A stretch of 64,000 bases of DNA from an uncultured Mycobacterium sp. (GCA_964447215.1 CAYURT010000004.1:37498-101497), one strand, 5' to 3'. Positions 3,915 through 30,666 are shown, counted from the stretch's first letter. Notes: generated by a model from the letters alone, not told the origin. Translations and numbers: made by a program.

Positions 3915-3953
3915 ATCGCTGTTTCTCACATCGTGGGAAGTTAGTATCTGGAT

Positions 3954-17353: not shown

Positions 17354-18208
17354 TCAGCCGAACGGGTTGTTGCCGCGCAGGAAGAGCCAGGCCGCTACTC
17401 CCGCGCCGACCCCGAGCAGCAGCGCCAGCATCGAGCCGACGAACGGGCGGCGTGCCCAGCCGCGCGCGCCGTCAAACCCGTAGCGGCCCGGGCCGGCCAG
17501 GATGATCGCGGCCGCCACCGCGATGAGAACCAGCAGGTACTCCGAGCTCCCCGAGCCCAGGATGGCCAGGCCGCCGTCGCGGCGCTGGGCGTCGATGTCG
17601 GCCAGCGACCCGTTGATCAGGAACGCCAGTGCCGCGGCCGCGGCCACCGGAGTGAACAGGCCCAGGACCAACAGCACCCCGGCGGCGATCTGGACACCGG
17701 CGCCGACGTAGGTCAGCACTCCCGCGTTCTGATAGCCGGCCTCGACCAGCTCGGTCTTGAAGCCGTTGAGCCCCTCCCCGCCCCACCAGCCGAAGGCCTT
17801 CTGAAGGCCGTGGGCGATGAAAACCACCCCGAGCGCCAGGCGCAGCAGCAGCAGCCCCATGTCCTGGGTGCCGCGCCGGCCGGCCGCCTTGACCTCGGCG
17901 TCGACCGCGACGATCTCCACCGGGGCCGGCCCCACCGGCGGCTGGACGTGCGGCGGCTGCACATAAGGCAGCGGTTCGGCGTCGCCGAGCATGCCGTGCA
18001 ATGTCGGCGCGGGCTCGCCGGGCGCCGCGGCGGCCGGGGCCGCCGGGGCCGCACCCATCGGCGGGATGCGGGTGGTCTCGAAGTCCCCGCCGTAGGTCGT
18101 GGTCCCCAGGTCGTCCTCGGGGTCGACCAGCCGCGCCGACGGCGGACGCCCCGCCGCCGCGGGATCCTCGGGTCGCTGCCAGCCGGTATCGGGGTTCTGG
18201 CTCGTCAC
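17354..18208 (-). CDS. DoxX-family membrane protein with a Pro/Ala-rich N-terminal region (Rv3005c-like)
   Basis: The DoxX core is LLLLRLALGVVFIAHGLQKAFGWWGG...GVLLVLGLFTPVAAAAALAF. I chose GTG 18208, giving 284 aa. The longer ORF-track form overlaps lppZ. Confidence 0.8.
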   Translation of the reverse strand: MTSQNPDTGWQRPEDPAAAGRPPSARLVDPEDDLGTTTYGGDFETTRIPPMGAAPAAPAAAAPGEPAPTLHGMLGDAEPLPYVQPPHVQPPVGPAPVEIVAVDAEVKAAGRRGTQDMGLLLLRLALGVVFIAHGLQKAFGWWGGEGLNGFKTELVEAGYQNAGVLTYVGAGVQIAAGVLLVLGLFTPVAAAAALAFLINGSLADIDAQRRDGGLAILGSGSSEYLLVLIAVAAAIILAGPGRYGFDGARGWARRPFVGSMLALLLGVGAGVAAWLFLRGNNPFG

Positions 18209-18320
18209 GCCTGCCAGGGTAAGGGCAATCGCTGCCCAAACCGGGGATTTGACCTGCCCCGGCGGTGGCCGCAACCCGGCGCGTGGCGGGCGGCGCGGTG
18301 CTGTACGTACCCTTGCGGAC

Positions 18321-19430
18321 ATGCGAGGAGGTCGGGTCGTGGCGGCGCTGTGCGCGCTGACGGTCGTCGCCTCGGGGTGCGCCCGGTTCGACGACACGGT
18401 GTCGCAGCCATTCACCACCCCGCCGGAGTACGTGCTCGGGCCGAAGTCGACCCCTCCGCCGCCCCCGCCATTGCCGGCCAAGCCGTTTCCCAAGGAGTGT
18501 CCGGCGCCGGGGGTGATGCAGGGCTGCCTGGAGAGCACCAGCGGGCTGATCATGGGACTCGACGGCAAGACCGCACTGGTGGCTGAGCGCACCACCGGCG
18601 TCGTCAAGGATGTCTCGATCAGCGCCGAGCCCTCGGTCCGGACCGTCATCGACGTCGACCCGGCCGGGGACGGCGGCCTGATGGACATCGTGTTGTCGCC
18701 GACCTACTCCCAGGACCGGCTGATGTACGCCTACATCACCACCCCCACCGACAACCGGGTGATCCGCATCGCCGATGACGACGTCCCCAAGGACCTGCTG
18801 ACCGGAATCCCCAGGGGGGCGACGGGCAACACCGGGTCGCTGCTGTTCACCAGCCCTACCACGCTGGTGGTGCAGACCGGCGACGCCGGCGATCCGGGGC
18901 TGGCCGCCGACCCGAAGTCGCTGGCCGGCAAGGTGATCCGCATCGAGCAGCCGACCACCGTCGACCAGGCGCCGCCGACCACGGCGCTCAGTGGGATGGG
19001 CTCGGGCGGCGGAATGTGCCTGGATCCGGCTGACAAGTCGCTCTACATCACCGACCGCACCCCGGCCGGGGACCGGCTGCAGCGACTGGGCCCGGACGGT
19101 AAGGCGACGACGGTGTGGACCTGGCCGGACCGTCCCGGCGTGGCCGGCTGCGCGGCCCTGGAGGGCACCGTGCTGGTGAACCTGGTCAACACCAAGCAGA
19201 CGGTGGCGGTGCGGCTGGCCGCCGCCTCCGGCGCGGTGACCGACGAACCGGAGGTGGTCCGGGAGGACAAGCACGGCCACGCCTGGGCGCTGGCGGTGTC
19301 GCCGGACGGCAACATCTGGGGCGCGACGGTCAATCGCACCGCCGGGGATGCCCAGCGGCTCGATGACGTGGTCTTCCCGCTGTTCCCGCAGGGCGGCGGC
19401 TTCCCCAGGGCCAACGCCGACGTCACCTAG
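18321..19430 (+). CDS. lppZ: Lipoprotein LppZ-like (soluble sugar dehydrogenase-type beta-propeller)
   Basis: The ATG at 18321 gives a signal peptide with a lipobox (MRGGRVVAALCALTVVASGCARF). Length is 369 aa. Its position is equivalent to Rv3006. Confidence 0.8.
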   Translation: MRGGRVVAALCALTVVASGCARFDDTVSQPFTTPPEYVLGPKSTPPPPPPLPAKPFPKECPAPGVMQGCLESTSGLIMGLDGKTALVAERTTGVVKDVSISAEPSVRTVIDVDPAGDGGLMDIVLSPTYSQDRLMYAYITTPTDNRVIRIADDDVPKDLLTGIPRGATGNTGSLLFTSPTTLVVQTGDAGDPGLAADPKSLAGKVIRIEQPTTVDQAPPTTALSGMGSGGGMCLDPADKSLYITDRTPAGDRLQRLGPDGKATTVWTWPDRPGVAGCAALEGTVLVNLVNTKQTVAVRLAAASGAVTDEPEVVREDKHGHAWALAVSPDGNIWGATVNRTAGDAQRLDDVVFPLFPQGGGFPRANADVT

Positions 19431-19456: not shown

Positions 19457-20308
19457 TCAGCCGCGCCGCAGGACCAGCCCGGGGTCGAAGGTGGCCCGGG
19501 CCGCGACCGAGGCGGCGGCGGCCGAGACCACCAGCGCGGCGGCATCCTCGTAGCCCTTGGGGAACACGATCTCGGCGCTGTCGGGCCCGTCCCGGTGCGC
19601 CATCAGCCAGTCATAGAGCAGCCAGTCCAGCGCGCAGGCCACCGTCATCGGATCGGCGCCGGGAAGACGCGCCGCGGACACCACCGCGTGCAGGGCCTCA
19701 CGGTGCTCCTTGCGAGCCCCCTCCTTGTTCACCCCCGAACTGTCGAACATCATCATCGACAGGGTCAGCGGGAACCGTTGGCCCGCCTCGGTGCGCACCA
19801 CCCAACGGCCGCCCTTCCACGGCGCGTCCGGGTCGACCCGGTGGAACTCCCCGAAGCCCCCCACCACCCCGAGTTCGGGGTCGTCGAGTTCCCCGTCCAA
19901 GGGCGCCGGACCCAGCAGACCCAGCGGCTGGCGGGCCAGGATGGAGAACAGCGCGGCGGTTCCGACGATCTTGCCCGCGCGCAGGTCCGCGGCGGACCCG
20001 GTCTGTTCCAGCGCGGCAGCGTACTCGAAGCACAGCCGGTCCAGCGCCCGGTGCAACTCCAGCAGGTCGTCGCGTTCGGCTTCGCCGGAGGGGCCGCGTC
20101 CGCCGCCCAGGATCTCACCGAAGCGCCCCGCCGCGATGATCAGCGCGTCGTCGAGCGCCTCCAGGTGGGTGGCGATCAGGCGGTCGGCCTCGTCGTCGCC
20201 GACGACGAGCGCCTGCAGCGTGGTCGCCGCTCCCTCGGGGGTGACCCAGTAGAAGCCGATCTGCTCGTCGGTCTGCACGATCCGGGGCCTCACGGTTCCC
20301 TCTTCCAC
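19457..20308 (-). CDS. Hypothetical protein, last gene of the hydrogenase operon
   Basis: This 283-aa acidic ORF has coding-like composition but no motif I recognise. Two starts are possible: ATG 20308 (19-nt overlap with the NHL gene) or GTG 20293 (GTGA overlap with the NHL stop). Confidence 0.6.
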   Translation of the reverse strand: MEEGTVRPRIVQTDEQIGFYWVTPEGAATTLQALVVGDDEADRLIATHLEALDDALIIAAGRFGEILGGGRGPSGEAERDDLLELHRALDRLCFEYAAALEQTGSAADLRAGKIVGTAALFSILARQPLGLLGPAPLDGELDDPELGVVGGFGEFHRVDPDAPWKGGRWVVRTEAGQRFPLTLSMMMFDSSGVNKEGARKEHREALHAVVSAARLPGADPMTVACALDWLLYDWLMAHRDGPDSAEIVFPKGYEDAAALVVSAAAASVAARATFDPGLVLRRG

Positions 20309-21549
20309 AGCACCACCCGGTTGTTGCCGGAGTCCGCCACCGCCAGGGCGTCACCGCGCAGCGAGAGTCCGTAGGGCCAGCACAGCGTGTCGCGCTGGAC
20401 CGAGGTCCAGCGGTTCTCCCCGTTGGAGGCGAAATCGGGCTGCGCGAGTACACAGTCGGCACCCCGGAAGGGCGTGCCGCCATCGGACCAGTCGGCACCC
20501 CGGAAGGGCGTACCGCCATCGGCACAGTCGGCACCCCGGAAGGGCGTGCCGCCCGGCACGTCGTCCCACAGCAGGATCCGGTTGTTGGCGGTGTCGGCCA
20601 CAGCCAGGGTCTGGCCGTCCAGGCATACCGCGTAGGGGAACCGGAACCGGTCGTTGGTGTGCGGACCGTACGGCCACTCTTCGGCGCTGGTGAAATCCGG
20701 TTGACCGAGTACCACGTCGGCTGCCCGGTCACCGGCCGGGTGCGGCGACCAGCCCAGCACCCGGTGGTCCCCGGCGTCGGCGATGAGCAGCAGGTCGCCG
20801 TCGCCGGAGATGTCATGCGGCCAGCGGAAGCTGGCCGGGCCCGCTGGCCCGCCCCGGTTCTCGGCGTGAGATGCCGGATCCGGCTGGCCCAGCAGGATGT
20901 CGGCGGGCTGATCGGGTTCGGGGATGCCGCCGCGCCAGCCCAACACCCGGCGGTTTCCGGTGTCGGCGACCCAGAACACCGAACCGACGATCGCGATGCC
21001 GAAGGGCCAGTAGAGGCCGGTGGCCGAACAGGGGCCGCCACGGTTCGCCTCGACGCTGCCGGCATCGGGCTGTCCGATGACCAGATCGGGCGCCACGTCG
21101 CTGGTCCGCGGCACGCTGTCCCACACCAGGATCCGGTGATGCCAGGCGTCGGCGACGACCAGCCGGCCCTCGTGTACCAGCACCCCGGTGGGCAGGTGCA
21201 TCCCCCGCTCCGGGCCCCGGCCGCCGGCCGCCGGGCCCTCGGTGTGGCCGTCGGGTTGGCCCAGCACCACATCGGCGGGCTGCTCGTCGGAGTCGGGCAG
21301 GGTGTGCCAGATCAGCACCCGGTGGTTGCCGGAGTCGGCCACCACGAGCTGGTCCTCGCCGAGGAAAACCCCGCGCGGGGAGTACATCCACGCCATCGAC
21401 GGTGCGGCGGGCGGCAGTGCCAGGCCGCCGGGTGCGGGGGCGCCCAGCCAGGCCTGCGGTCGCCACCCACCGCTCAGGTCCACCTCCGGGGCGACGTCGG
21501 GCCGGGTGCCGACCCCGCTGATGTTGTGCCGAACCGTGTAGCGGCCCAC
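20290..21549 (-). CDS. Six-bladed NHL-repeat beta-propeller protein (hydrogenase-associated)
   Basis: There are six copies of the blade motif (VVADSGNHRVLIW, VVADAWHHRILVW, WVADTGNRRVLGW, LIADAGDHRVLGW, AVADTANNRILLW, AVADSGNNRVVLW). They are separated by AD-x-(V/L)LGQPD linkers. Confidence 0.8.
   Translation of the reverse strand: MGRYTVRHNISGVGTRPDVAPEVDLSGGWRPQAWLGAPAPGGLALPPAAPSMAWMYSPRGVFLGEDQLVVADSGNHRVLIWHTLPDSDEQPADVVLGQPDGHTEGPAAGGRGPERGMHLPTGVLVHEGRLVVADAWHHRILVWDSVPRTSDVAPDLVIGQPDAGSVEANRGGPCSATGLYWPFGIAIVGSVFWVADTGNRRVLGWRGGIPEPDQPADILLGQPDPASHAENRGGPAGPASFRWPHDISGDGDLLLIADAGDHRVLGWSPHPAGDRAADVVLGQPDFTSAEEWPYGPHTNDRFRFPYAVCLDGQTLAVADTANNRILLWDDVPGGTPFRGADCADGGTPFRGADWSDGGTPFRGADCVLAQPDFASNGENRWTSVQRDTLCWPYGLSLRGDALAVADSGNNRVVLWKREP
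20453..20553 (-). repeat. 36-bp in-frame tandem repeat (2.8 copies) inside the NHL gene
   Basis: The units at 20453-20488, 20489-20524 and 20525-~20553 (CAGTCGGCACCCCGGAAGGGCGTGCCGCCATCGGAC) differ at 1-3 positions. They encode GGTPFRGADCAD / GGTPFRGADWSD / GGTPFRGADC. Confidence 0.9.
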
Positions 21550-21561
21550 GACCGTCGCCGC

Positions 21562-22431
21562 CTATCCGACCCGCACCCAGACGGCGCCGTCATCGACGCG
21601 CAGCGGCAACTGCTCGAGTTGGGCTCCCGGCATGCTCAGGCACTCACCGGAGCTGGCGTCGAAACAGAAACCGTGCCATGGGCAGGTCAGCGTGCCGTTC
21701 GCGAGGTCCAGGACGCCGTCGTCCAAGGGCAGCGCCTCGTGCGCGCATTCGTTGCGGTAGGCCGACAGCCGCTGGCCCAGGTTGACGATCAGCACGTCGG
21801 CGCGCGCACCGGCGGTGGTGTTCAGCGACACCGGCGTCAGGTCGTCGACCTTGAGATCCGATGCCGGGCCGACCCTCGCCCAGCCTTCGGACTCCGGATC
21901 GCGGCCGATGCGCAGCGACTCGACCGGGATCAGCGTCGGGCTGGGCTCGTCGGCGAGCACCTCGACCGACGTGATCGACGGAACCCCCTGCACCAGAGCC
22001 TCTTCCACCAGGTTCCGCAGGGTCACCGAGGACATCGAGCAGCCGTTGCACGCGCCCTCCAATCGAACGAAGGCCGTGCCGTCGTCCACCCGGACCAGGG
22101 TGACGTCGCCGCCATGGCTGTGCAGCTGCGGCCGCACCGAGGCCAGCACCTGGTTGGCGTTGGTCACCGGGTCGGGCCGGACGATGCCGTGCAGCGAGAG
22201 CAGCAGGTGCACAACGGGGTCGTCGACGAGTTCGAAGAGCACCTCGCGGGCCGCTTCGTGCTCACGCATCCGCCGCACCATGGTCAGCAGCCCGGAGCGG
22301 TGCACCGCCTCGACCGCGTCCTGGAGTTCCTGCGCGACCGTGCGGGCCGGCTCGTCGAGTTCGGCGGCGGCGGCGACGGCCGCGTCGACCCGCTCGGCGA
22401 GTTCCTCGAACGTCGGTTCCGGATCACTCAT
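21562..22431 (-). CDS. hucE: NifU-like / Rieske [2Fe-2S] fusion protein (HucE-like putative hydrogenase electron-transfer protein)
   Basis: The ATG at 22431 overlaps the upstream stop (ATGA). It has a NifU C-terminal-type CxxC motif (EGACNGCSMSSVTL) and a Rieske pair (NECAHE ... CPWHGFCF). Length is 289 aa. Confidence 0.75.
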   Translation of the reverse strand: MSDPEPTFEELAERVDAAVAAAAELDEPARTVAQELQDAVEAVHRSGLLTMVRRMREHEAAREVLFELVDDPVVHLLLSLHGIVRPDPVTNANQVLASVRPQLHSHGGDVTLVRVDDGTAFVRLEGACNGCSMSSVTLRNLVEEALVQGVPSITSVEVLADEPSPTLIPVESLRIGRDPESEGWARVGPASDLKVDDLTPVSLNTTAGARADVLIVNLGQRLSAYRNECAHEALPLDDGVLDLANGTLTCPWHGFCFDASSGECLSMPGAQLEQLPLRVDDGAVWVRVG

Positions 22432-23681
22432 CCCGGCGTCTCCTCGGTGCGGGCCAGCGCCTGCTGCTTGGCGATCTCGTCGAGCACGCCACGCACGGTG
22501 CGCACCGAGTCGTGATCGCCGAGTTCCTCGAACAGGAACCGCGCGTCGTAGAGCTTGGCCTTGGCCTGCTCGAAGTCCCCCAGGTGGGCCAGCACATTGC
22601 CCTGGTTGGCCAGCACCCGGGCACGCCCCAGCGGGTCGCTGTCCCGGTCGCGGGCCGAGAGCACCCCCTCGTAGAGCTCTACGGCCTCGACGAGGTTGTC
22701 GAGCCGATGGTTCGACGGGGTGTACACCAGCGAGTTGGCCAGGTTCAACTGCACGCTGGCCCACTGCTCGGGGTAGTCCTCGCGGGTGTAGACCTTCAGC
22801 GCCGAGCGCAGCGACTGGGCGGCGACGCCCAGCCGGAGCTGATCGGAGGCCTCGGTCATCGGCATGGTCAGGTAGGCGGTGGCCAGGTTCGCGTGCGCGG
22901 ACGCCCACAGCAGCGGGGCCTCCTCCCGCAGCACCAGCTGAAGCGCGGAGTGGTAGTGCGGCACCGCGCGGGCCAGCAGGTCGGGGCGGTCCCCGGCCTG
23001 CTCGTGCAGGACACCGGCCAGGTTCAGGTGCAGTTCGGCCCGGGCCACCCGCAGGCCGTCGGCCCCGTCGAGCGCCCGCAGCGCCCGCTGGAACCGGTCG
23101 ACGGCCTCAGTGCCCCCGGCGATCGGCGCCGAGGCCCCCAGCAGCACCCCGCGCAGCGGGGCGGACACCGCGCCGGCCTGTTCGGCGGCCCGATCGAGGT
23201 GATCCAGCGCTGCGGCGGCATCACCCGCCGCGAGTGCGTGACCGGCCTGGGCCGAACCCGCCACGGCGGCCAGTTCGGCATCGGCGGCCTCGGCGTCCGG
23301 GGGGCTGTCGCAGCGGCCGAGCGCGAACAGCACGACGTCGACCATGATCGCGAATTCACCGAGCGCCGAACGCAGTTGGTCGGGGTCCTCGGAATCGGGA
23401 TCCATGACGAACCGGTTGTAGCGGGTGATCGGATCGTCTCCGGTCAGCTGGGCCAGCGCCCCGTCGCGATCACCGGCCAGTGCGAGTTCGTGGGACTTCA
23501 GTACCGCCGGCCACCGGGGCACCTGGCCGGCCAGCAGCGCCACGCGGGCCTCCTCGGTCTCCGGCGAGGCCGGGATCAGCAGGTAACCCAGCGGCAGCGG
23601 GAAGGCGCCGACCGGCTGCGGGCGAACGGCCAGGACGGCCGGATCGTCCAGGTCGGACACTCCGGTCTCGGATGCGGTCAC
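22428..23681 (-). CDS. TPR-like repeat protein (hydrogenase-associated, function unknown)
   Basis: An AAGGAG sequence lies 4 nt upstream of the GTG at 23681, and that GTG overlaps the upstream stop (GTGA). The C-terminal half has TPR-like helices (NLATAYLTM, LNLANSLVY, LANQGNVLAHLGDFEQAKAKLYDARFLFEELGD). Length is 417 aa. Confidence 0.7.
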   Translation of the reverse strand: MTASETGVSDLDDPAVLAVRPQPVGAFPLPLGYLLIPASPETEEARVALLAGQVPRWPAVLKSHELALAGDRDGALAQLTGDDPITRYNRFVMDPDSEDPDQLRSALGEFAIMVDVVLFALGRCDSPPDAEAADAELAAVAGSAQAGHALAAGDAAAALDHLDRAAEQAGAVSAPLRGVLLGASAPIAGGTEAVDRFQRALRALDGADGLRVARAELHLNLAGVLHEQAGDRPDLLARAVPHYHSALQLVLREEAPLLWASAHANLATAYLTMPMTEASDQLRLGVAAQSLRSALKVYTREDYPEQWASVQLNLANSLVYTPSNHRLDNLVEAVELYEGVLSARDRDSDPLGRARVLANQGNVLAHLGDFEQAKAKLYDARFLFEELGDHDSVRTVRGVLDEIAKQQALARTEETPG

Positions 23682-23938
23682 AGTGCTCCTTGTATCGGCC
23701 CGGCGATATCGCGCTCGGCGGCCCGCTTGATCAGATCGGCGGCCAGTTCCGCGCGCCTCTTGGTGGCGTGGGTGTGGATCCGCTTGCGGACCACCCCGTC
23801 GGCGAACACCACGATGATGTCCACCGCCCAGCGGCCACGCTCGGGGACCACCACGGTGGTCACGTCCAGCGCCTCCTGAGCCGAGCTGTCCGTGCGGACC
23901 TCGGTCTTGGGGCGCTGCGGATCGGACACGATGATCAC
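23678..23938 (-). CDS. Small hypothetical protein (86 aa) between the protease and TPR genes
   Basis: The GTG at 23938 overlaps the protease stop, and its own stop overlaps the TPR start (GTGA both times). The sequence is VIIVSDPQRPKTEVRTDSSAQEALDVTTVVVPERGRWAVDIIVVFADGVVRKRIHTHATKRRAELAADLIKRAAERDIAGPIQGAL. I recognise no motif. Confidence 0.5.
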   Translation of the reverse strand: MIIVSDPQRPKTEVRTDSSAQEALDVTTVVVPERGRWAVDIIVVFADGVVRKRIHTHATKRRAELAADLIKRAAERDIAGPIQGAL

Positions 23939-24771
23939 TCCCCCACCGGCCCGTGCACCCGGATCCGCAGCGCCTTGTCGCCGTCGTCCCAGCGGGCCTG
24001 CAGCACGCCGGCCGCGATGTCGTCGCCGAGCACTTCCCGCACCAGCACCGCCCGGTCCCCGGCCGGGTTGCGCTGTTTGAGCAACAGACCGCCGCTGCTG
24101 GGTCCACGCAGCGGGTAGAGCCACAGTTCGCCGTCGCGCAGCGCTGCCGCCACCGCGTCGGAGGGAAACCGGCTGGCGGCCAACTCGGCGGCGAGCCGAA
24201 GATAGCCGTCAGCGGTGAGTTCGACGGTGCTCTCGGCCTCGGCGGGCGGACGCAACGGAGCGAAGAAGTCGCGTTCGATGCGGGCGATCACCTGTTCCAT
24301 CGCCGCGGACACCGGCTCGGACAGCTCGGCGCCCAGTTCCACCCCGGCCGCCTCGATGAGGAACACGGTGATGTCGGTCGGGCAGGCCTCCCCGAGCGCC
24401 CAGCGGGCGAACGGGATGGCGTGGTCCCAGCGGAACGAATGGGTGTGCAGGCCCTGCAGCGGCGGCAGGTCGCTGAGTTCCTCCCCGGGAACCCGGTAGA
24501 CGGTGCCGGGTTCGGCGCCGGTGGCCGACGCATCGACGATCACCACCCGCCGCGCGCCGCGCATCTGGAAGGCGACGTCCATACCGGCGGTGCCGCCGTC
24601 GACCAGTCGGGCGCCGTCGGGAACGCCGCGGTCCCACAGGTGGCGAACCAGGACCGGTCCGACGCCGTCATCGCCGCGCAGCAGATTCCCGCAGCCCACC
24701 ACCAGCACGTCGTAGGGCGGCGGCTCGATGTCGACGGCCGCGTCGCTACCGGGAGTGGCCTCCCCGGTCAC
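23935..24771 (-). CDS. [NiFe]-hydrogenase maturation endopeptidase (HupD/HybD family) with an extra ~110-aa C-terminal domain
   Basis: The GTG at 24771 overlaps the large-subunit stop (GTGA). The protease core is VLVVGCGNLLRGDDGVGPVLV...VVIVDA...HTHSF. The C-terminal part (STVELTADGYLRLAAELA...RIRVHGPVGE) is unassigned. Length is 278 aa. Confidence 0.8.
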   Translation of the reverse strand: MTGEATPGSDAAVDIEPPPYDVLVVGCGNLLRGDDGVGPVLVRHLWDRGVPDGARLVDGGTAGMDVAFQMRGARRVVIVDASATGAEPGTVYRVPGEELSDLPPLQGLHTHSFRWDHAIPFARWALGEACPTDITVFLIEAAGVELGAELSEPVSAAMEQVIARIERDFFAPLRPPAEAESTVELTADGYLRLAAELAASRFPSDAVAAALRDGELWLYPLRGPSSGGLLLKQRNPAGDRAVLVREVLGDDIAAGVLQARWDDGDKALRIRVHGPVGE

Positions 24772-26375
24772 ACCATTCCGTTGACGACGAACTTCGAGAG
24801 CTCCTTGCCGGTCTTGCCGTCGTAGGCGTGCACGGTGCACACCAGGCAGGAGTCGAAGCTGCGGGCGACGTGTCCGAGCTCGACGGGGTCCTCCGGGTCG
24901 ACGATCGGCGCGCCGACGAACGCCCGCTCCATCGGCCCGAGCACCTCGTTGCCGTCCCGGGGGCCGATGTTCCACGCGGTCGGGGTGACCACCTGGTAGT
25001 TCTTGATCTTGCTGTTCTCGATCACGATCCAGTCGGCCAGCGAGCCGCGGGCGGCCTCGGTGGCCCCGAAGCCCTTGCCCTCGGCGTGCTCGGTGGGCTT
25101 GGTGTAGAAGCTCTCCTTCAGGTCGAGCTGGTCCAGCCAGGACTTGACCCACTTGTAGTACTTGGGCGCCTCGTGCATACGGCCCAGTTGCCGCACCATC
25201 ACGCTGGGCCCGATCTTGTTGTAGATGTCGAGGAAGAGCGGATCGTTGTCCTGGTGCGGACCGGCGTTGGGGCCGGCCGCGGCCATCCGGCGGGCCAGCG
25301 GCCCGGTCTCCAGCGGGATGGCGCCCAGGTCGCCCACCTCGTAGCGCGGCGACTTGGCCCAGCTGTACTTGCCCTGCTTCTTGGCGGCCTCCGGGTCCAG
25401 CGGGATGGTCTCGCCCTCGAACGGATGCAGCGGACGGCTGCCCTGATAGAAGGAGTGCGTGACGTCCTCGCGGACGTTGGCCTGATCGAAGTCGAACCAC
25501 TGGCCGTCGGTGAACACCCCGCCGCGCCCGATCAGCGCGGCGTTGCGACCCTCGATGGTGGGCCGCTGGTAGAGGTTGGGGTCGAAATAGGTGCCCATCG
25601 CCATGTAGTTGCCGACCCCGGCGCCGTACTTGTCCAAGCCGACGTCGAGGCAGTAGCGGATGAAGAAGCCGCAGTCGCTGTTGTACTGCGACTCGTTCTC
25701 GTCGACCCAGGCCAGCACATCCTCCCAGGTCTTGTTCTCCAGCCACCGGTCCACGCTGCAGCCCAGCCACTCGGCTTCCAGCCAGTTGTCCTTCCAGTGC
25801 TCCAGGATCGCGATCGAGCGAGTCACGTCGGACAGCGACGGGGCCCCCATCACGCCGCCGGGAACCATGAAGCTGGAGTGCGGCCACTGCCCGCCGAAGA
25901 TCGCGTAGACCTCGACGGGCTTGTTCGACATCGTCACCCCCTTCTGATACGCGGTGCCGACGTAAGGGGCGAAGCGGCGGACGGCCTCGTCGTACAGGGC
26001 CGACTTGGCATAGTTCTTGTTGGTCAGGTCGATGGCGAACAGCGCATAGAAGTAGCGCGGTATCGACTGCAGCGTCTCGCAGGCCTGCGCGATATTGCGC
26101 ACCAGGGTGGCGTTGGGCGGCATGTGGGTGCGCCAGGCGGTGTCCAGGGCGTAAGCCGACTTGTAGAGGTGGCTGCCGCCGCAGATCCCGCAGATGCGCG
26201 GACACACGATGAGCCCGGCCTGCGGGTCCTTGCCGCGAAGGATGATCTCGAAGCCGCGGAACATCGCGGCCTCGGTCCACGCCGAGGTGACCACCCCGTC
26301 GTCGATGGTCACCCGGACGTCGAGGTCACCCTCGACGCGACCGAGGGGGCTGACGTGAAGATCGAGTGCTGTCAT
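24768..26375 (-). CDS. hucL: [NiFe]-hydrogenase large subunit, group 2a-like (Huc-type)
   Basis: It has the N-terminal Ni-binding motif PRICGICGGSH, the C-terminal motif FDSCLVCTVH, and a 19-aa tail for proteolytic removal. An AAGGA Shine-Dalgarno-like sequence precedes the ATG. Length is 535 aa. Confidence 0.95.
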   Translation of the reverse strand: MTALDLHVSPLGRVEGDLDVRVTIDDGVVTSAWTEAAMFRGFEIILRGKDPQAGLIVCPRICGICGGSHLYKSAYALDTAWRTHMPPNATLVRNIAQACETLQSIPRYFYALFAIDLTNKNYAKSALYDEAVRRFAPYVGTAYQKGVTMSNKPVEVYAIFGGQWPHSSFMVPGGVMGAPSLSDVTRSIAILEHWKDNWLEAEWLGCSVDRWLENKTWEDVLAWVDENESQYNSDCGFFIRYCLDVGLDKYGAGVGNYMAMGTYFDPNLYQRPTIEGRNAALIGRGGVFTDGQWFDFDQANVREDVTHSFYQGSRPLHPFEGETIPLDPEAAKKQGKYSWAKSPRYEVGDLGAIPLETGPLARRMAAAGPNAGPHQDNDPLFLDIYNKIGPSVMVRQLGRMHEAPKYYKWVKSWLDQLDLKESFYTKPTEHAEGKGFGATEAARGSLADWIVIENSKIKNYQVVTPTAWNIGPRDGNEVLGPMERAFVGAPIVDPEDPVELGHVARSFDSCLVCTVHAYDGKTGKELSKFVVNGMV

Positions 26376-26423
26376 GGAAGTCCTTAGGGGTCGGTCGGTG
26401 GGCGGGGGCGGCTGGGGTTCGAC

Positions 26424-27395
26424 TCAGACGACGAACATGTCCTCTTTGGACCACTTCGGCGCGGCCAGTCGGGCGGCGGCGGCGTGGGCCATGTAGGAGA
26501 GCTTCTTGGTCCCGGTCGGCACCTCCTCGGGGATCACCCCGGCCACCTTCTGGGTCTTGAACAGCGTGCCGGGAGCCAGGTCGAAGTGCGGGAACTCCGG
26601 TTCGGTGCAGCCGTAGCAGGGCTGGCCGGCTCGGGTCTTGGAGGACTGGCGGTTCCACAGGATCCGGTTGCACGGCGAGTGGGTCATCGGGCCGCGGCAG
26701 CCGAACTCGTAGAACAGGCATCCGGTGCGGGTGCCCTCACCGAAGGACATGGTGGACTGCTTGTATTCGAAGAACTGCACGCGCGTGCAGCCGGTCTGGG
26801 TGAACGTCTTGAAGAAGGTCTCCGGGCGCTGCAACTCGTCCAGCGCGATGTCCCCGGCCCGGCCGCTGGCCAGCGCGACGATGATCTGGGTGATCCAGTC
26901 CGGGTGGGCCGGACAACCGGGGATGTTGATCACCGGCAACCCCATCTTGGACTTGAAGTTCGGGCCCAGGAAGCCGCCCTTGTTGCGCTTGTGGAACTGC
27001 AGGCCGGTCGAGCCCGACGGGTTGGGCTCCATCGCCGGGATGCCGCCCCAGCAGGCGCAGTCCCCGATCGCCACGACGATCTGGGCCTGGGCCGCCAGCT
27101 CGGTGACCCAGTCCTTCATCGGCCGGTCGGCGAACATGTCCATCCGGCCCGAGCCGTTCGGGGCCTGGATGATGCTGCCCTCGAACACGAACACGTCCAG
27201 CGGCCGCTCGCCCTTGGCGCAGTCCCAGAACAGCTTCTGGGCGTTGTTGCCCAGCTCCAGCCCCAGCGACGGATGCCAGATCACGTCGAGGCCGAAGTCG
27301 ACGATCAGGTCGACGACATTGGGTTCCTCGGCGTTCAGGAACGACATGGTGTTGCCGCTGCACGCCCCTCCCTGCAGCCATAGAACAGATGCCAT
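26424..27395 (-). CDS. hucS: [NiFe]-hydrogenase small subunit without a Tat signal peptide, group 2a-like
   Basis: The ATG at 27395 is preceded by GAGAGGAG 7 nt upstream. The N-terminus MASVLWLQGGACSGNTMSFLNAEEP resembles cyanobacterial-type HupS. There is no RRxF twin-arginine leader. Cys motifs GDCACWGG and GCPAHPDW are present. Confidence 0.9.
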   Translation of the reverse strand: MASVLWLQGGACSGNTMSFLNAEEPNVVDLIVDFGLDVIWHPSLGLELGNNAQKLFWDCAKGERPLDVFVFEGSIIQAPNGSGRMDMFADRPMKDWVTELAAQAQIVVAIGDCACWGGIPAMEPNPSGSTGLQFHKRNKGGFLGPNFKSKMGLPVINIPGCPAHPDWITQIIVALASGRAGDIALDELQRPETFFKTFTQTGCTRVQFFEYKQSTMSFGEGTRTGCLFYEFGCRGPMTHSPCNRILWNRQSSKTRAGQPCYGCTEPEFPHFDLAPGTLFKTQKVAGVIPEEVPTGTKKLSYMAHAAAARLAAPKWSKEDMFVV

Positions 27396-27708
27396 GCGCA
27401 GACTCCTCTCGGAAGGGTTCAGCCGAAGATCCGAAGACCCCGGCACCGGCGCGAGCGCCGCAGTGGGGGTAGTTCGACACTAACCCCACGGCGTCGATAC
27501 CGGAACCGGAAAACACCCTCTATTTCTGACTTCTGGCCCGACGATCACCGCGCCGCGGCCGCGGGCTCCTACCCCGGGTCCCACCCGTGCGGGGGATTGT
27601 CTTCCCCGGGAGCCACCGCCACTATTGACGGGCGCTCGGGGCGGACGCGGGAGACGTTCCGGACCCCGGCGCGGATGAACGCGGATCTTGCGGAGAGGGG
27701 TCGCCACC

Positions 27709-28779
27709 ATGCTGACCAACCACACCACGCTGGTGCGGTTCCTGATCGAGGAACGCGCCCGCCACCCCGAGGCCAGCGGCGACCTCAACGCGCTGATCCT
27801 CGACGTCGCGCTGGCCTGCAAGGCGATCTCCAACCGGGTGGCCCAGGGTGAGCTGGGCGGGGTGCTCGGCGCCGCCGACGCGGTCAACGTCCAGGGCGAG
27901 ACCCAGCAGAAGCTCGACGTGCTGGCCAACGAGTACTTCCTGCACGCCTGCGAGTGGGGCGGGCAGACCGCGGGCATGGTCTCGGAGGAACTCGAGGAGC
28001 ACTACCGCCTGCCGTCCCGGTACGCCCGGGGCAAATACCTGCTGAGCTTCGACCCGCTCGACGGGTCGTCCAACATCGACGTCAACGTCTCGGTCGGCAG
28101 CATTTTCTCGATCCTGCGCGCACCCAACCCCGGCGAGGACGCCGCGCCCGAGGATTTCCTTCAGCCGGGCACCGAGCAGGTGTGCGCGGGTTACGCCATC
28201 TACGGCCCGTCGACGATGCTGGTGCTGACCGTGGGGACCGGGGTGCACGCGTTCACCCTGGACCCGGGGCTGGGCGAGTTCTTCCTGAGCCGGGAGTCGA
28301 TCACCATCCCGACCCATGCCACGGAGTTCGCGATCAACACCTCCAACCGCAGGTTCTGGGAGCCCGCCGTCCAGCGCTACATCGACGAGTGCATGGCCGG
28401 CCAGAGCGGGCCCCGCGGCAAGGACTTCAACATGCGCTGGGTGGCCTCGCTGGTCGCCGAGACCCACCGCATCCTCGGCCGCGGCGGGGTGTTCCTTTAT
28501 CCGCGTGACTCCAAGGACCCCAGCAAGGCCGGACGGCTGCGCCTGCTCTACGAGGCCAACCCGATCGCCTTCATCATCGAGCAGGCCGGCGGACTGGCCA
28601 GCACCGGCCGCCGCCGCCTGCTGGAGGTGGAGCCGACCGAGATCCACCAGCGGGTCCCGTTCATCTTCGGGGCGGCCGACGAGGTCCGCCGCGTCGAGCA
28701 CTACCACAGCGAGAGCAACGACAACCCGAACACCTCTCCGCTCTATGGCACCCGCGGCCTGTTCCGCAGCACCACCTGA
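27709..28779 (+). CDS. fbp: Class I fructose-1,6-bisphosphatase (CbbF-type; possibly FBPase/SBPase)
   Basis: The ATG at 27709 has a GGAGAGGGG Shine-Dalgarno-like sequence upstream. The class I signature LLSFDPLDGSSNIDVNVSVGSIFSI is present. Length is 356 aa. Confidence 0.9.
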   Translation: MLTNHTTLVRFLIEERARHPEASGDLNALILDVALACKAISNRVAQGELGGVLGAADAVNVQGETQQKLDVLANEYFLHACEWGGQTAGMVSEELEEHYRLPSRYARGKYLLSFDPLDGSSNIDVNVSVGSIFSILRAPNPGEDAAPEDFLQPGTEQVCAGYAIYGPSTMLVLTVGTGVHAFTLDPGLGEFFLSRESITIPTHATEFAINTSNRRFWEPAVQRYIDECMAGQSGPRGKDFNMRWVASLVAETHRILGRGGVFLYPRDSKDPSKAGRLRLLYEANPIAFIIEQAGGLASTGRRRLLEVEPTEIHQRVPFIFGAADEVRRVEHYHSESNDNPNTSPLYGTRGLFRSTT

Positions 28780-28838
28780 GAACGGTTCGCACCCGCCAAC
28801 GGTCCGGCCAGGAAGCCTCAGCCCAGAAAGGTCCCGTC

Positions 28839-29717
28839 ATGTCCCGACTGCACCCGATCATCTCGGTCACCGGATCCTCAGGAGCCGGCACCACCTCGGT
28901 CATGAAGACCTTCGACCACATCTTCCGGCGCGAGGACGTCAACGTCGCCTATATCGAAGGCGACAGCATGCACCGCTACGACCGTGCCGAGATGAAGGTC
29001 AAGATCGCCGAGGCCCATGCCAACGGCAACCACAACTTCAGCCACTTCGGCCCGGAGTCCAACCTGTTCGCCGAGTTGGAGGACCTCTTCCGCACCTACG
29101 GCGAGACCGGGACCGGCAAGGTGCGCAAGTACCTGCACGACGACAAGGAAGCCGAACCCTACGGCCAGGCGCCGGGAACGTTCACGCCGTGGGAGAGCCT
29201 GCCGGACAACACCGACATACTGTTCTATGAGGGCCTGCACGGCGCGGTGGTCACCGGCGACGTCGACATCGCCCGCCATGCCGACCTCAAGATCGGCGTG
29301 GTCCCGGTGATCAACCTGGAGTGGATTCAGAAGCTGCACCGCGACAAGGTGTCCCGCGGCTACACCTCCGAGGCGGTCACCGACACCATCCTGCGCCGGA
29401 TGCCCGACTATGTGAACTTCATCTGCTCCCAGTTCACCTACACCGACGTCAACTTCCAGCGGGTGCCGATGGTCGACACCTCGAATCCGTTCATCGCCCG
29501 GTCGATCCCGACCGCCGACGAGTCGATGGTGATCATCCGGTTCCGCGATCCGCACGGCATCGACTTCCCCTATCTGCTGTCGATGCTGCACGACTCGTTC
29601 ATGTCCCGGGCCAACACCATCGTGTGCCCCGGCGGGAAGATGGAACTGGCCATGCAGCTCATCTTCACCCCGATGGTGATGCGCCTGATCGAACGCCGGA
29701 GGGCGGCGATGCCCTGA
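28839..29717 (+). CDS. cbbP: Phosphoribulokinase (bacterial class I, CbbP-type)
   Basis: It has an N-terminal P-loop (HPIISVTGSSGAGTTSV) plus the typical bacterial PRK patterns FRREDVNVAYIEGDSMHRYDRAEM and PVINLEWIQKLHRDK. Confidence 0.9.
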   Translation: MSRLHPIISVTGSSGAGTTSVMKTFDHIFRREDVNVAYIEGDSMHRYDRAEMKVKIAEAHANGNHNFSHFGPESNLFAELEDLFRTYGETGTGKVRKYLHDDKEAEPYGQAPGTFTPWESLPDNTDILFYEGLHGAVVTGDVDIARHADLKIGVVPVINLEWIQKLHRDKVSRGYTSEAVTDTILRRMPDYVNFICSQFTYTDVNFQRVPMVDTSNPFIARSIPTADESMVIIRFRDPHGIDFPYLLSMLHDSFMSRANTIVCPGGKMELAMQLIFTPMVMRLIERRRAAMP

Positions 29718-29760
29718 GGCCCCGCCGGGGTGAACTGACCGGGTCTCAGGACGCGGCGAC

Positions 29761-30666
29761 TCAGGATGCGGCTCTGCGCAGCGGGCCGATCGTGCGCCAG
29801 CCCAGATCCCGGTGCGCGACCAGATGCTTGACCAGAAGTTCGGTGGAACTGGTCGGCGCGGACTGGCTGACCAGGTGCCAGGGGCGGTTCAGCGGTGTGC
29901 CGGGCACCGCCAGTTCGACCAGCGTCCCGCTGTCGAGCTGGGTCCGCACCGCCTGCCGGGACACCAGGGTCACCCCCAGGCCCGCCACCGCCGCCGCGAC
30001 CACCGCCCCGTGCGACCCCAGCACCAGCAACGAGGGACTGACGTCGAGTTCGTCGAGGAGCGCCGAGAGCGCGGACCGGGTTCCCGAACCCGGCTCGCGC
30101 AGCAACCACGTCGTGCCCGCCGGTGTGAAGTCCGCGGCCACCGCCGGCGCGCCGACGACGATCAGGGTGTTGGGGCTGACAGCCCGAACCCGGGCTTTGC
30201 GCCGCAGGTTCTCCGGCGGCCGCCCGGCCACCACGAGGTCGACCTCGTGGCGAGCCAGCATCGGCCACACGTCGTTACGCGAGGCCACCTCCAGGTTCAG
30301 GACGACCGAGGGATAGCGTTCGCGGAACGAGGCCAGCGCGGCCGGGATCAGCAGTTCCCCCGCCGAGGTGACCGCCGCCAGCCGCACCGAGCCGTTCTCC
30401 GGGTCCGCCTCGCCGCGCGCAGCCAGGATCGCCTCATCATGCAAACCCAGGATGCGCCGGGCGTACTCGACATAACGCTCCCCGGCCGGGGTCAGTTTGA
30501 CCCCGCGACCGTGCCGGTCGACCAGGGCGATCCCGATCTCGTCGGACAGCGCGCGGACCGCCGAGGAGATCGAGGACTCGGTCACCACCAGCCGCTCCGC
30601 GGCGCCCCGCACCGAACCGGTCTCGGCCAGTTCAACCAGGGCGCGGAGCCTGGCCTTAGTTGTCAT
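29761..30666 (-). CDS. LysR-family transcriptional regulator (CbbR-like by context)
   Basis: It has an N-terminal HTH (LRALVELAETGSVRGAAERLVVTESSISSAVRALSDEIGIALVDR) and a LysR substrate-binding domain. It is divergent from the aldolase gene and convergent with cbbP. Confidence 0.8.
   Translation of the reverse strand: MTTKARLRALVELAETGSVRGAAERLVVTESSISSAVRALSDEIGIALVDRHGRGVKLTPAGERYVEYARRILGLHDEAILAARGEADPENGSVRLAAVTSAGELLIPAALASFRERYPSVVLNLEVASRNDVWPMLARHEVDLVVAGRPPENLRRKARVRAVSPNTLIVVGAPAVAADFTPAGTTWLLREPGSGTRSALSALLDELDVSPSLLVLGSHGAVVAAAVAGLGVTLVSRQAVRTQLDSGTLVELAVPGTPLNRPWHLVSQSAPTSSTELLVKHLVAHRDLGWRTIGPLRRAAS

What the first reader, a model, noticed from the sequence alone, without database searches (positions are those of the whole stretch)
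19457..27395. Eight-gene translationally coupled Huc-like hydrogenase operon in which five genes have no assigned function
The gene order on the minus strand is hucS, hucL, protease fusion, 86-aa ORF, TPR protein, NifU-Rieske protein, NHL propeller, 283-aa protein.

From hucL onward, each junction I could read is a 4-nt start/stop overlap:
- GTGA at 24768-24771
- GTGA at 23935-23938
- GTGA at 23678-23681
- ATGA at 22428-22431
- GTGA at 20290-20293, if the GTG start is used for the last gene

The one junction without an overlap is NifU-Rieske to NHL, which has a 12-nt gap (21550-21561). This pattern argues for stoichiometric co-expression and perhaps a physical complex.

Only the structural subunits, the protease and (in M. 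smegmatis, from memory) the Rieske protein HucE have experimental roles. The TPR, NHL, 86-aa and 283-aa proteins are uncharacterised.

No gene sits upstream of hucS. As I recall, M. smegmatis encodes the stalk/scaffold subunit HucM (MSMEG_2261) in that position. So either this enzyme lacks a HucM-type scaffold or one of the unknown genes replaces it.
Basis: partly seen in the sequence, partly recalled or inferred. Interest (0 to 1): 0.7.

Follow-up and report, generated by a model that had tools for sequence, protein, structure and literature searches.

The report
Stalk-less Huc hydrogenase operon in mycobacteria
This is the standard mycobacterial operon for the air-hydrogen-scavenging enzyme Huc with its known but still unexplained helper genes; what is unusual is that this uncultured aquatic lineage has deleted the stalk subunit HucM and its neighbouring regulator and has changed the enzyme surface where HucM normally sits.

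Summary
Eight minus-strand genes (19457-27395) have the stated order, domains and 4-nt start/stop overlaps, and all are under purifying selection. HucL and HucS are near-identical to M. smegmatis Huc (1075 and 692 bits to 7UUS/7UUR).

The operon is not new. All eight genes are syntenic in about 80 Mycobacteriaceae and Pseudonocardia loci. The TPR/NifU/NHL module also accompanies group 2a hydrogenases in Thermus and, per the literature, in cyanobacteria. Purified Huc contains only HucS, HucL and HucM, so the accessory proteins are more likely maturation or assembly factors than subunits.

New points:
- HucM (DUF1641) is absent from the 64-kb window and from 16 related loci with enough flank to judge (five shorter ones show none either). 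These form one clade. The adjacent AraC regulator is missing too, which suggests a single deletion.
- That clade carries a tight cluster of substitutions in HucS 292-300 (EVPEGxDHLT to ExxTGxKKLS). This abuts the published HucS(298-311)/HucM menaquinone site. The quinone ligands K212, Y229 and Y301 are kept.
- The 278-aa protein gives a confident fold (pLDDT 93.6) with no PDB match. Elsewhere its gene sits after hypD.

Whether HucM is encoded elsewhere in the genome could not be tested.

The parts
26424..27395 (-). hucS, [NiFe]-hydrogenase small subunit, 323 aa, no Tat signal peptide
   Evidence: Pfam Oxidored_q6 and NiFe_hyd_SSU_C. 691.8 bits, residues 2-323 aligned end to end with M. smegmatis HucS 7UUR_D. 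Menaquinone ligands K212, Y229 and Y301 are conserved.
26496..26522 (-). Codons for HucS residues 292-300, the segment remodelled in the HucM-less clade (window: VPTGTKKLS; HucM-bearing relatives: VPEG[ST]DHLT)
   Evidence: 6 of the 15 clade-specific HucS substitutions fall here. A simulation gives P about 7e-5. The segment abuts the HucS 298-311 / HucM 63-78 quinone site described in PMC13433803.
24768..26375 (-). hucL, [NiFe]-hydrogenase large subunit, 535 aa; motifs PRICGICGGSH and DSCLVCTVH followed by a 19-aa tail that the protease is expected to remove
   Evidence: Pfam NiFeSe_Hases. 1075 bits to M. smegmatis Huc 7UUS_A / 7UTD_A. Sequence.
23935..24771 (-). Maturation endopeptidase (residues 22-167) fused to a conserved domain of about 90-110 aa (residues about 183-270) that has no family assignment
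   Evidence: HycI and TIGR00072 match residues 22-167. The C-terminal part has no Pfam hit. In Thermus it is a separate 106-aa ORF in another frame (L082 6037-6357), 53% identical.
23678..23938 (-). 86-aa conserved protein of unknown function
   Evidence: No family hit. Present in nearly all related loci at 53-79% identity. dN/dS about 0.3. Annotated 'hypothetical protein' in NZ_CP012886.2.
22428..23681 (-). 417-aa TPR-containing protein
   Evidence: TPR_12 matched at E=2.6e-6, below Pfam's cut-off. 41% identical to the annotated tetratricopeptide repeat protein in the Thermus hydrogenase cluster.
21562..22431 (-). hucE, NifU-like domain (CNGC) plus Rieske domain (CAH-x17-CPWH), 289 aa
   Evidence: Pfam NifU and Rieske. 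Motifs read. This is the same architecture as M. smegmatis HucE, which is required for H2 oxidation (PMC6883350).
20290..21549 (-). 419-aa NHL-repeat protein (six NHL matches, probably a six-bladed propeller)
   Evidence: Pfam NHL, six stretches. Homologues lie next to NifU and hypF genes on plasmids of Mycobacterium, Thermus, Sulfobacillus, sphingomonads and Bradyrhizobium.
20452..20553 (-). 36-bp tandem repeat (2.8 copies) inside the NHL gene, encoding GGTPFRGADx repeats
   Evidence: TRF score 183. A related population in run X25 skips 20452-20549.
19457..20293 (-). 278-aa protein ('p283') of a narrow actinobacterial family, with a confident predicted fold that has no solved relative
   Evidence: No Pfam or NCBIfam hit. 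696 homologues, all named 'hypothetical'. Only 98 clusters at 50% identity among 1.84 billion representatives. AF2 pLDDT 93.6, pTM 0.92. Best Foldseek E is 0.9 against PDB and 0.45 against BFVD. A 67%-identical gene follows hypD and DUF6390 on NZ_CP012886.2.
27396..27687 (.). 292-bp spacer between hucS and the divergent FBPase gene, at the position where relatives carry hucM and an AraC-family regulator
   Evidence: No HucM or DUF1641 similarity in any frame. No AraC homologue in the window. The RBS region CTGAGAGGAG is shared with HucM-bearing loci, and a TAnnnT -10-like element is conserved in the HucM-less clade.

Best explanation
The locus is a standard mycobacterial huc operon.

HucS and HucL form the catalytic core of a group 2a, Huc-type [NiFe]-hydrogenase. 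By homology this enzyme oxidises H2 and reduces menaquinone.

The six downstream genes are a dedicated maturation and assembly set, translated in a coupled chain:
- an endopeptidase that trims the HucL C-terminus, fused to a small conserved domain;
- an 86-aa protein;
- a TPR scaffold protein;
- HucE (NifU-like plus Rieske), which delivers or handles Fe-S clusters or electrons;
- an NHL propeller;
- a 278-aa protein with a fold that has no solved relative, whose gene travels with the hyp genes in other mycobacteria.

I infer that these proteins act on the precursor, probably on the small subunit with its three [3Fe-4S] clusters, and are not subunits of the finished enzyme.

The lineage is special in one respect. 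A single ancestral deletion removed hucM (the DUF1641 stalk that scaffolds eight HucSL units and pipes menaquinone from the membrane) together with the adjacent AraC-family regulator. The enzyme stayed under purifying selection and kept its quinone ligands. The HucS segment next to the quinone/HucM interface changed from acidic (E294, D297, H298) to neutral and basic (T294, K297, K298).

My preferred mechanism is inference. The enzyme works as a stalk-less HucS2L2 unit that meets menaquinone by docking directly on the anionic membrane through this basic patch and the C-terminal helix. Monotopic quinone reductases that lack a DUF1641 partner work this way.

Shown here: gene content, homology, the clade-wide absence of hucM and the regulator at the locus, the substitution cluster, and purifying selection. 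Inferred: the maturation role, true genome-wide loss of hucM, and direct membrane docking.
For: Identity: HucL scores 1075 bits and HucS 692 bits to the M. smegmatis Huc structures.

The accessory set is conserved. All eight genes are syntenic in nearly all of 80 loci. TPR, NifU, NHL and the protease-C domain are also in a Thermus group 2a cluster. The cyanobacterial equivalent is described in PMC2408588.

Evidence that the accessory proteins are not subunits:
- Purified Huc contains only HucS, HucL and HucM (PMC10017518).
- The p283 homologue sits after hypD.
- The cyanobacterial ORFs are co-transcribed with hyp genes.
- Deleting HucE reduces H2 oxidation, and the hucE hhyE double deletion abolishes it.

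All eight genes are under purifying selection, with dN/dS 0.13-0.35.

HucM loss:
- tblastn and profile HMMs, including a Thermus DUF1641 probe, find nothing in the window or in any HucM-less locus. The positive control scores 1e-87.
- The HucM-less loci form one clade in the HucS+HucL tree, with the window at its base.
- The AraC regulator is present in 58 of the 59 loci with a HucM match (the exception, L080, is cut just upstream) and in no locus without one.

Interface remodelling: 6 of 15 clade-specific HucS substitutions lie in residues 292-300, P about 7e-5. The HucS 298-311 / HucM 63-78 quinone site is described in PMC13433803. K212, Y229 and Y301 are conserved.

A delta-hucM mutant of M. 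smegmatis still shows Huc activity but no oligomer. An NDH-2 precedent exists for clades with and without a DUF1641 partner (PMC13524794).
Against: - Only 64 kb of this genome, and +-10 kb of the relatives, could be searched. A relocated or divergent DUF1641 gene elsewhere is not excluded.
- I could not inspect the 7UTD coordinates, so I do not know that residues 292-297 contact HucM. The link rests on a published residue range (298-311) that overlaps only the end of the cluster.
- The window itself keeps V292 and P293 and carries only four of the six changes.
- No accessory protein has a demonstrated biochemical function. HucE was originally proposed as an electron acceptor rather than a maturation factor.
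- The tree is a simple neighbour-joining tree without support values.
- The expression evidence is weak. Metatranscriptome contigs cover genes and spacers evenly and may include DNA.
Confidence: 0.6

Rival explanations
1. HucM is not lost but relocated. The clade still makes a canonical stalked Huc oligomer from a hucM gene encoded elsewhere in the chromosome, and the operon merely lost synteny.
For: Only the window and +-10 kb flanks were searchable. The hyp genes, which the enzyme needs, are also not at the locus, so essential partners can be encoded at a distance. DUF1641 genes without strict synteny to their partner enzyme are described for some NDH-2 clades (PMC13524794).
Against: - hucM is directly upstream of hucS in the 58 HucM-bearing loci whose flank covers that position.
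- It disappeared together with the neighbouring AraC gene, which looks like a deletion rather than a transposition.
- The HucS surface next to the HucM/quinone site changed charge on the same branch.
- In four metagenomes where hucS of this organism has depth above 100, no hucM-like contig (at least 80% nucleotide identity to a sister-clade hucM) reaches comparable depth. This is a weak test, because hucM diverges fast.
Confidence: 0.2
2. One or more of the unknown proteins (TPR, NHL, 86-aa, 278-aa, or HucE) is a structural partner that replaces HucM as scaffold or electron or quinone conduit in this enzyme.
For: Tight translational coupling suggests fixed stoichiometry. HucE has a high-potential Rieske centre and is required for H2 oxidation in vivo. 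HhyE was reported to co-migrate with HhySL on native gels (cited).
Against: - The same genes, in the same order and with similar conservation, occur in relatives that have HucM. They therefore did not arise as a replacement.
- None of them shows clade-specific gain, and dN/dS is the same against HucM-less and HucM-bearing relatives.
- None resembles DUF1641.
- Mature M. smegmatis Huc lacks them.
Confidence: 0.12
3. After losing HucM and its regulator, the operon is a decaying remnant with no role in respiration.
For: Loss of a subunit needed for the oligomer, loss of the dedicated regulator, no hyp genes nearby, and no RuBisCO next to the remaining cbb genes.
Against: - All eight ORFs are intact, with the metal-binding motifs present.
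- dN/dS is 0.13-0.35 across 11 species-level relatives of the clade.
- The clade is diverse and retains the operon throughout.
- Related sequences are present in metatranscriptome assemblies.
Confidence: 0.04

Closest known systems
Mycobacterium smegmatis Huc (group 2a [NiFe]-hydrogenase; operon MSMEG_2261-2270; structures 7UTD, 7UUR, 7UUS, 8DQV)
   Same: HucS and HucL are near-identical end to end, including the menaquinone ligands K212, Y229 and Y301 and the lack of a Tat signal. The downstream set is shared: protease, small ORF, TPR, HucE (NifU plus Rieske) and NHL.
   Different: There is no HucM (DUF1641 stalk) and no adjacent AraC regulator. HucS 292-300 is remodelled. The hyp genes do not follow the operon. 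The 278-aa gene lies directly after NHL instead of after hypD and DUF6390.
Cyanobacterial hupSL with the 'extended hyp operon' ORFs asr0689, asr0690, alr0691 (TPR), alr0692 (NifU-like), alr0693 (NHL) (PMC2408588)
   Same: The same kind of module (small ORFs, TPR, NifU-like, NHL) lies between the structural genes and hyp genes of a group 2a uptake hydrogenase, and was proposed to mature the small subunit.
   Different: I compared domain architecture and order only. Sequence homology to the Nostoc proteins was not tested here. alr0692 is described with a thioredoxin-like region, not a Rieske domain. The small cyanobacterial ORFs are predicted to span the membrane, which the 86-aa protein here does not appear to do.
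Thermus thermophilus SG0.5JP17-16 plasmid pTHTHE1601 hydrogenase cluster
   Same: Homologous S, L, protease, TPR, NifU-family and NHL genes at 41-70% identity, in the same order.
   Different: It has a DUF1641 gene and hypAB upstream. The protease is 159 aa, and the domain fused to it in mycobacteria is a separate 106-aa ORF. There is no homologue of the 86-aa or 278-aa proteins.
DUF1641 / HMP scaffold systems (HucSLM, ForCE, Ndh-YjlC/Ncp) and their partner-less relatives
   Same: The NDH-2 family has clades that use a DUF1641 tube and clades that bind the membrane directly through their own C-terminus (PMC13524794). The HucM-less Huc clade would be the hydrogenase counterpart.
   Different: In NDH-2 the inferred direction is gain of the scaffold. 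Here it is loss. Direct membrane binding of this Huc is my inference and has not been shown.

Membership tests
Group 2a (Huc-type) [NiFe]-hydrogenase | Large subunit with N-terminal RxCGxCxxxH and C-terminal DxCxxCxxH Ni-Fe ligand motifs and a cleavable C-terminal tail | tested here: met
   PRICGICGGSH and DSCLVCTVH followed by 19 aa. Pfam NiFeSe_Hases.
Group 2a (Huc-type) [NiFe]-hydrogenase | Closest solved relatives are Huc large and small subunits over the full length | tested here: met
   1075 bits to 7UUS_A. The next best hydrogenase scores 207 bits. HucS scores 692 bits to 7UUR_D.
Group 2a (Huc-type) [NiFe]-hydrogenase | Cytosolic small subunit without a twin-arginine signal peptide | tested here: met
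   The protein starts MASVLWLQGGACSGN and aligns from residue 2 to residue 1 of the Huc chain.
Group 2a (Huc-type) [NiFe]-hydrogenase | Menaquinone head-group ligands of HucS (K212, Y229, Y301) | tested here: met
   All three are conserved at the same numbering (residues named in PMC10017518).
HucSLM complex (stalked 833-kDa oligomer) | HucM, a DUF1641 protein encoded directly upstream of hucS | tested here: not met
   No match in the 64-kb window by tblastn (best E=0.04), by a 57-sequence HMM, or by a Thermus DUF1641 probe. The rest of the genome was not searchable.
HucSLM complex (stalked 833-kDa oligomer) | Conserved HucS surface at the HucM/quinone interface (EVPEGxDHLTYMAH...) | tested here: not met
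   This motif occurs in 56 of the 57 HucM-bearing sequences (the other reads EGPEGSDPLTYRAP). The window reads EVPTGTKKLSYMAH.
High-affinity, O2-insensitive atmospheric H2 oxidiser | Sub-atmospheric H2 affinity and O2 insensitivity | not testable with these tools
   Needs enzyme or whole-cell kinetics.
HucE (hydrogenase-associated NifU-Rieske protein) | NifU-like domain with CxxC plus a C-terminal Rieske motif CxH...CxxH, encoded in the structural operon | tested here: met
   Pfam NifU (residues 94-157) and Rieske (184-271). CNGC and CAH-x17-CPWH read. Family description in PMC6883350.
HucE (hydrogenase-associated NifU-Rieske protein) | Required for H2 oxidation | not testable with these tools
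   Genetic test in M. smegmatis only.
HybD/HycI-type hydrogenase maturation endopeptidase | Full-length match to the protease family profile | tested here: met
   TIGR00072 at 139.6 bits (cut-off 47.45), profile positions 1-143 of 145. Pfam HycI.
Group 2a accessory module (small ORFs, TPR, NifU-like, NHL) | TPR, NifU-family and NHL genes in that order downstream of the structural genes, homologous across phyla | tested here: met
   Syntenic in 80 loci. 41%, 46% and 53% identity to the Thermus TPR, NifU and NHL genes in the same order.
Group 2a accessory module (small ORFs, TPR, NifU-like, NHL) | Sequence homology to the Nostoc asr0689-alr0693 proteins | not tested
   Only domain content and order were compared with the published description.

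The most novel reading that the evidence does not exclude
A whole clade of uncultured aquatic Mycobacteriaceae runs a natural 'stalk-less' Huc. After a single deletion of hucM and its AraC regulator, the catalytic HucS2L2 unit evolved a basic patch beside its quinone pocket. It now takes menaquinone directly from the membrane, without the DUF1641 tube thought to be integral to Huc function. Alongside this, the 278-aa protein is a Huc/Hyp-associated factor with a fold that has no solved relative.
Probability: 0.35. Interest if true: 0.6.

Novelty: new variant of a known kind. Interest (0 to 1): 0.45.

Why it matters
Huc is the model for enzymes that live on the trace hydrogen in air, and it is being developed as an oxygen-insensitive biocatalyst. 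Its DUF1641 stalk (HucM) is regarded as the device that lets a non-membrane enzyme reach menaquinone.

A diverse natural lineage that keeps a selected, intact Huc without that stalk, and with compensating changes at the interface, is a ready-made comparison. It can show what the stalk is needed for: oligomerisation, quinone delivery or regulation. It can also show how DUF1641 partnerships are lost.

The comparative data also narrow the open question about the accessory genes. They are universal companions of group 2a enzymes, they are under selection, and they are absent from the mature enzyme. They should therefore be tested as small-subunit assembly factors. The 278-aa family is a tractable unknown, since it has a confident predicted model and a narrow distribution.

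Tried and rejected
- The 165-aa minus-strand ORF at 27480-27977, just upstream of hucS, as a possible HucM. It has no PDB, Pfam or NCBIfam match, it is antisense to the FBPase gene, and its composition is that of a shadow ORF. Rejected.
- Sequence search of the protease C-domain, orf86, p283 and TPR against PDB. Only weak TPR-repeat hits (E>=0.05).
- Pfam at E<=10 for the protease C-domain, orf86 and p283. Nothing.
- First AF2 run of p283 with 27 close homologues. pLDDT 53, unusable. A more diverse 21-sequence alignment gave pLDDT 93.6.
- Foldseek of p283 against PDB and BFVD. No match with E<0.4. No AlphaFold DB library was available.
- Looking for hyp genes in the window with HypF, HypC, HypE and related queries from L048. 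None.
- Testing 'HucM elsewhere' through metagenomes rich in this organism. hucS is covered at over 100x, and hucM and AraC only by short partial matches. The 80% nucleotide threshold is too strict for a fast-evolving gene and the samples are mixed, so the test is only weakly informative.
- Metatranscriptome contigs cover the operon, but also the spacers and flanks, evenly. They are not usable as proof of transcription or of operon boundaries.
- E. coli-type promoter and terminator scan. Nothing above chance.
- My simple GC3-based gene caller mis-called several low-contrast regions, so I relied on homology instead.
- By eye the protease C-domain resembles an AbrB/SpoVT-like fold. No tool supported this, so it is not claimed.

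Full report
**Observation**

I read the junctions directly:
- GTGA overlaps at 24768-24771, 23935-23938, 23678-23681 and 20290-20293
- an ATGA overlap at 22428-22431
- a 12-nt gap at 21550-21561
- a 48-nt gap with an AAGGA ribosome-binding site between hucS and hucL

All eight ORFs have the codon-position GC pattern of real genes in this 70% GC genome, with GC3 of 0.87-0.94.

Pfam and NCBIfam confirm the labels:
- small subunit: Oxidored_q6 plus NiFe_hyd_SSU_C
- large subunit: NiFeSe_Hases
- endopeptidase: HycI/TIGR00072 on residues 22-167 of 278
- TPR: weak match
- NifU plus Rieske
- NHL: six repeats

The 86-aa protein, the 278-aa protein and the last 110 residues of the protease have no family match, even at E<=10.

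**Identity**

HucL scores 1075 bits against the M. smegmatis Huc large subunit (7UUS, 7UTD). The next hydrogenase scores 207 bits. HucS aligns from residue 2 to 323 with M. smegmatis HucS at 692 bits. It has no Tat signal. It keeps K212, Y229 and Y301, the residues that hold the menaquinone head group in the cryo-EM structure (PMC10017518). This is a group 2a, Huc-type enzyme.

**Surroundings**

The window is the conserved mycobacterial core region, running from hupB, leuCD, serA and ilvCNB through gatB, pfkA, gatA and ligA to trmU, iscS and etfAB (Pfam; the remaining ORFs read by eye). The huc operon and four Calvin-cycle-type genes are inserted between ilvB and gatB. Those four genes are FBPase 27688-28779 (+), phosphoribulokinase 28839-29717 (+), a LysR regulator 29761-30672 (-) and a class I aldolase 30752-31849 (+).

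Downstream, the operon ends 26 bp from a convergent gene (18096-19430). There are no hyp genes in the window.

The DNA occurs in seawater, sediment, marine and oyster metagenomes, and not in any isolate run.

**How ordinary is the operon?**

A scan of one genome per species returned 80 loci from Mycobacteriaceae and Pseudonocardia, with HucL 83-90% identical to the window's. All eight genes are present in the same order in nearly all of them, except where contigs are cut.

The 4-nt overlaps are conserved at most junctions: 55/66, 59/72, 43/71, 51/63 and 32/41. These counts are upper estimates, because I chose the candidate start nearest to -4.

dN/dS between the window and relatives is 0.13-0.35 for every gene, including the 86-aa ORF (about 0.3) and the 278-aa gene (0.15).

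Outside the Actinobacteria, a Thermus thermophilus megaplasmid carries homologous S, L, protease, TPR, NifU-family and NHL genes in the same order.

The literature already describes this module:
- The M. smegmatis huc operon is MSMEG_2261-2270, with HucE as a NifU-like plus Rieske protein required for H2 oxidation (PMC6883350).
- In Nostoc, two small ORFs, a TPR protein, a NifU-like protein and an NHL protein lie between hupSL and hyp. They are co-transcribed with hyp and were proposed to mature the small subunit (PMC2408588).

So 'five genes without assigned function' is true experimentally, but the gene set is a known, widespread companion of group 2a hydrogenases.

**What the accessory genes most likely do**

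Purified M. smegmatis Huc contains HucS, HucL and HucM only. The accessory proteins are therefore not stoichiometric subunits of the finished enzyme.

Three further observations bear on their role:
- The protease extension is an independent 106-aa ORF in Thermus (L082 6037-6357, 53% identical, different frame from the protease). The mycobacterial gene is thus a true fusion of the protease with a small conserved partner.
- The 278-aa gene is the last gene after hypD and a DUF6390 gene in the annotated huc-hyp cluster of an M. intracellulare plasmid (67% identity). In three other loci it lies about 10 kb downstream of hucL. It therefore travels with the maturation genes.
- Its family is narrow: 98 clusters at 50% identity among 1.84 billion representatives, of which about ten are full length. 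It has no conserved cysteines.

With a diverse 21-sequence alignment, the 278-aa protein gives a confident AlphaFold model (pLDDT 93.6, pTM 0.92). That model has no significant Foldseek match in the PDB or BFVD.

Taken together, I read the six genes as a translationally coupled assembly line for the enzyme, probably for the Fe-S-rich small subunit. This is inference.

**The missing HucM**

The ORF directly upstream of hucS in M. litorale (L001) is HucM, matching 7UUS chain Q at E=2.7e-50. tblastn with it finds a copy directly upstream of hucS in 58 loci.

It finds nothing in the window (best E=0.04). It also finds nothing within +-10 kb in L007, L013, L014, L015, L020, L022, L024, L026, L027, L028, L030, L032, L037, L042, L044 and L046. 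Several shorter contigs also show none.

Two more sensitive searches give no hit against all six-frame ORFs of the window and these loci: a profile HMM built from the HucM sequences of the related loci, and a Thermus DUF1641 probe. The positive control scores 1e-87, and 1e-9 with the Thermus probe.

In a neighbour-joining tree of HucS+HucL, all HucM-less loci and the window form one clade, with the window as its earliest branch. The sister clade (M. litorale, M. rhodesiae, M. sphagni and others) has HucM.

Nearly every locus with a HucM match (58 of 59; L080 is cut just upstream) also has a divergent AraC-family regulator next to hucM. Every HucM-less locus, and the window, lacks it. The annotated plasmid shows the canonical arrangement: AraC, DUF1641, S, L. 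The simplest reading is one ancestral deletion of AraC plus hucM.

The ribosome-binding region CTGAGAGGAG immediately before hucS is shared by both groups. The HucM-less clade has its own conserved upstream element ending in a TAnnnT hexamer.

**Correlated change in HucS**

There are 15 positions where the HucM-bearing sequences are at least 90% conserved and the HucM-less clade has a different majority residue. Six of these lie in residues 292-300:
- 56 of the 57 HucM-bearing sequences read EVPEG[ST]DHLTYM.
- The clade reads E[TV][GP]TG[TSA]KKL[ST]YM.
- The window reads EVPTGTKKLSYM.

A simulation gives about 7e-5 for such clustering. H304 and I310 also vary in the clade.

A 2026 structural comparison states that in HucSLM the menaquinone sits at the interface of HucS 298-311 and HucM 63-78 (PMC13433803). 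The remodelled segment therefore abuts the surface that HucM covers. Its net charge moves from acidic to basic, while the quinone ligands are retained.

In M. smegmatis, deleting hucM leaves Huc active but abolishes the oligomer. For NDH-2, clades with a DUF1641 partner have lost the membrane-binding C-terminus that partner-less clades keep (PMC13524794).

My preferred mechanism is therefore a stalk-less HucS2L2 that docks on the membrane directly. I rate this as plausible but unproven.

**Limits**

Relocation of hucM remains possible. I give it about 0.2.
- A metagenome test was only weakly informative. hucS had depth above 100, contigs break exactly at the hucS start, and hucM and AraC have only short partial matches.
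- Metatranscriptome contigs cover the operon and its flanks evenly, so they do not prove transcription.
- I could not inspect structure coordinates.
- The tree has no support values.

**Verdict**

As stated, the finding describes a known operon type.

Noticed in passing
window 20452-20553 (inside the NHL gene): A 36-bp tandem repeat (2.8 copies, 92% match) encodes GGTPFRGADx repeats in a loop of the propeller. A related population in run X25 skips 20452-20549 and has 24 other bases there, so the expansion is strain-specific.
   Followed up: partly
window 27688-31849; L001 about 3800-4020 and 24 other loci: FBPase, phosphoribulokinase, a LysR (CbbR-like) regulator and a class I aldolase flank huc, but no RuBisCO large-subunit match exists anywhere in the 64 kb. 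In 25 HucM-bearing loci a form I RuBisCO large-subunit match lies a few kb upstream of hucS; in L001 it sits between the aldolase and the LysR gene. Phosphoribulokinase without a nearby RuBisCO is odd. In the window, huc is divergent from cbbF-cbbP, which suggests shared control.
   Followed up: partly
L001 7075-8379 and the equivalent position in all HucM-bearing loci; absent from the window: An AraC-family regulator is always divergent from hucM and is lost together with it. It is a candidate for the still-unidentified huc transcription factor mentioned in PMC13098282.
   Followed up: partly
whole window; L001-L046: No hypA-F genes lie in the 64-kb window or within 10 kb of huc in the HucM-less clade and most of its sister clade. 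M. smegmatis-like loci have hypF directly after the NHL gene.
   Followed up: partly
L082 6037-6357 (Thermus thermophilus pTHTHE1601): A 106-aa ORF homologous to the C-terminal extension of the mycobacterial protease is not in the plasmid's gene table. It overlaps the protease gene's end and abuts the TPR gene.
   Followed up: yes
window about 27470-27500; upstream of hucS in L007, L013, L020, L022, L024, L027, L032, L037, L046: A conserved block (GTTTCG...GGAAnTCnTTCC...GGCGGTAcTCT) ends in a TAnnnT -10-like hexamer upstream of hucS in the HucM-less clade. It may be a replacement promoter and operator.
   Followed up: no
L007 about 11600-12360; L022 about 14930-16240: Two HucM-less loci have about 0.8-1.3 kb of extra sequence between hucE and the NHL gene that the window lacks (coordinates). 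The content was not examined.
   Followed up: no
window 975-1694 (-): An HU-type histone-like protein with a long Lys/Ala-rich PAKKA-repeat tail, like mycobacterial HupB/MDP1 (read by eye). This fits a Mycobacteriaceae origin.
   Followed up: no
L081 16667-18261 (M. intracellulare plasmid NZ_CP012886.2): In the canonical cluster the p283 homologue is translationally coupled to a DUF6390 gene after hypD, and is followed by cbbX. DUF6390 is absent from the window.
   Followed up: no
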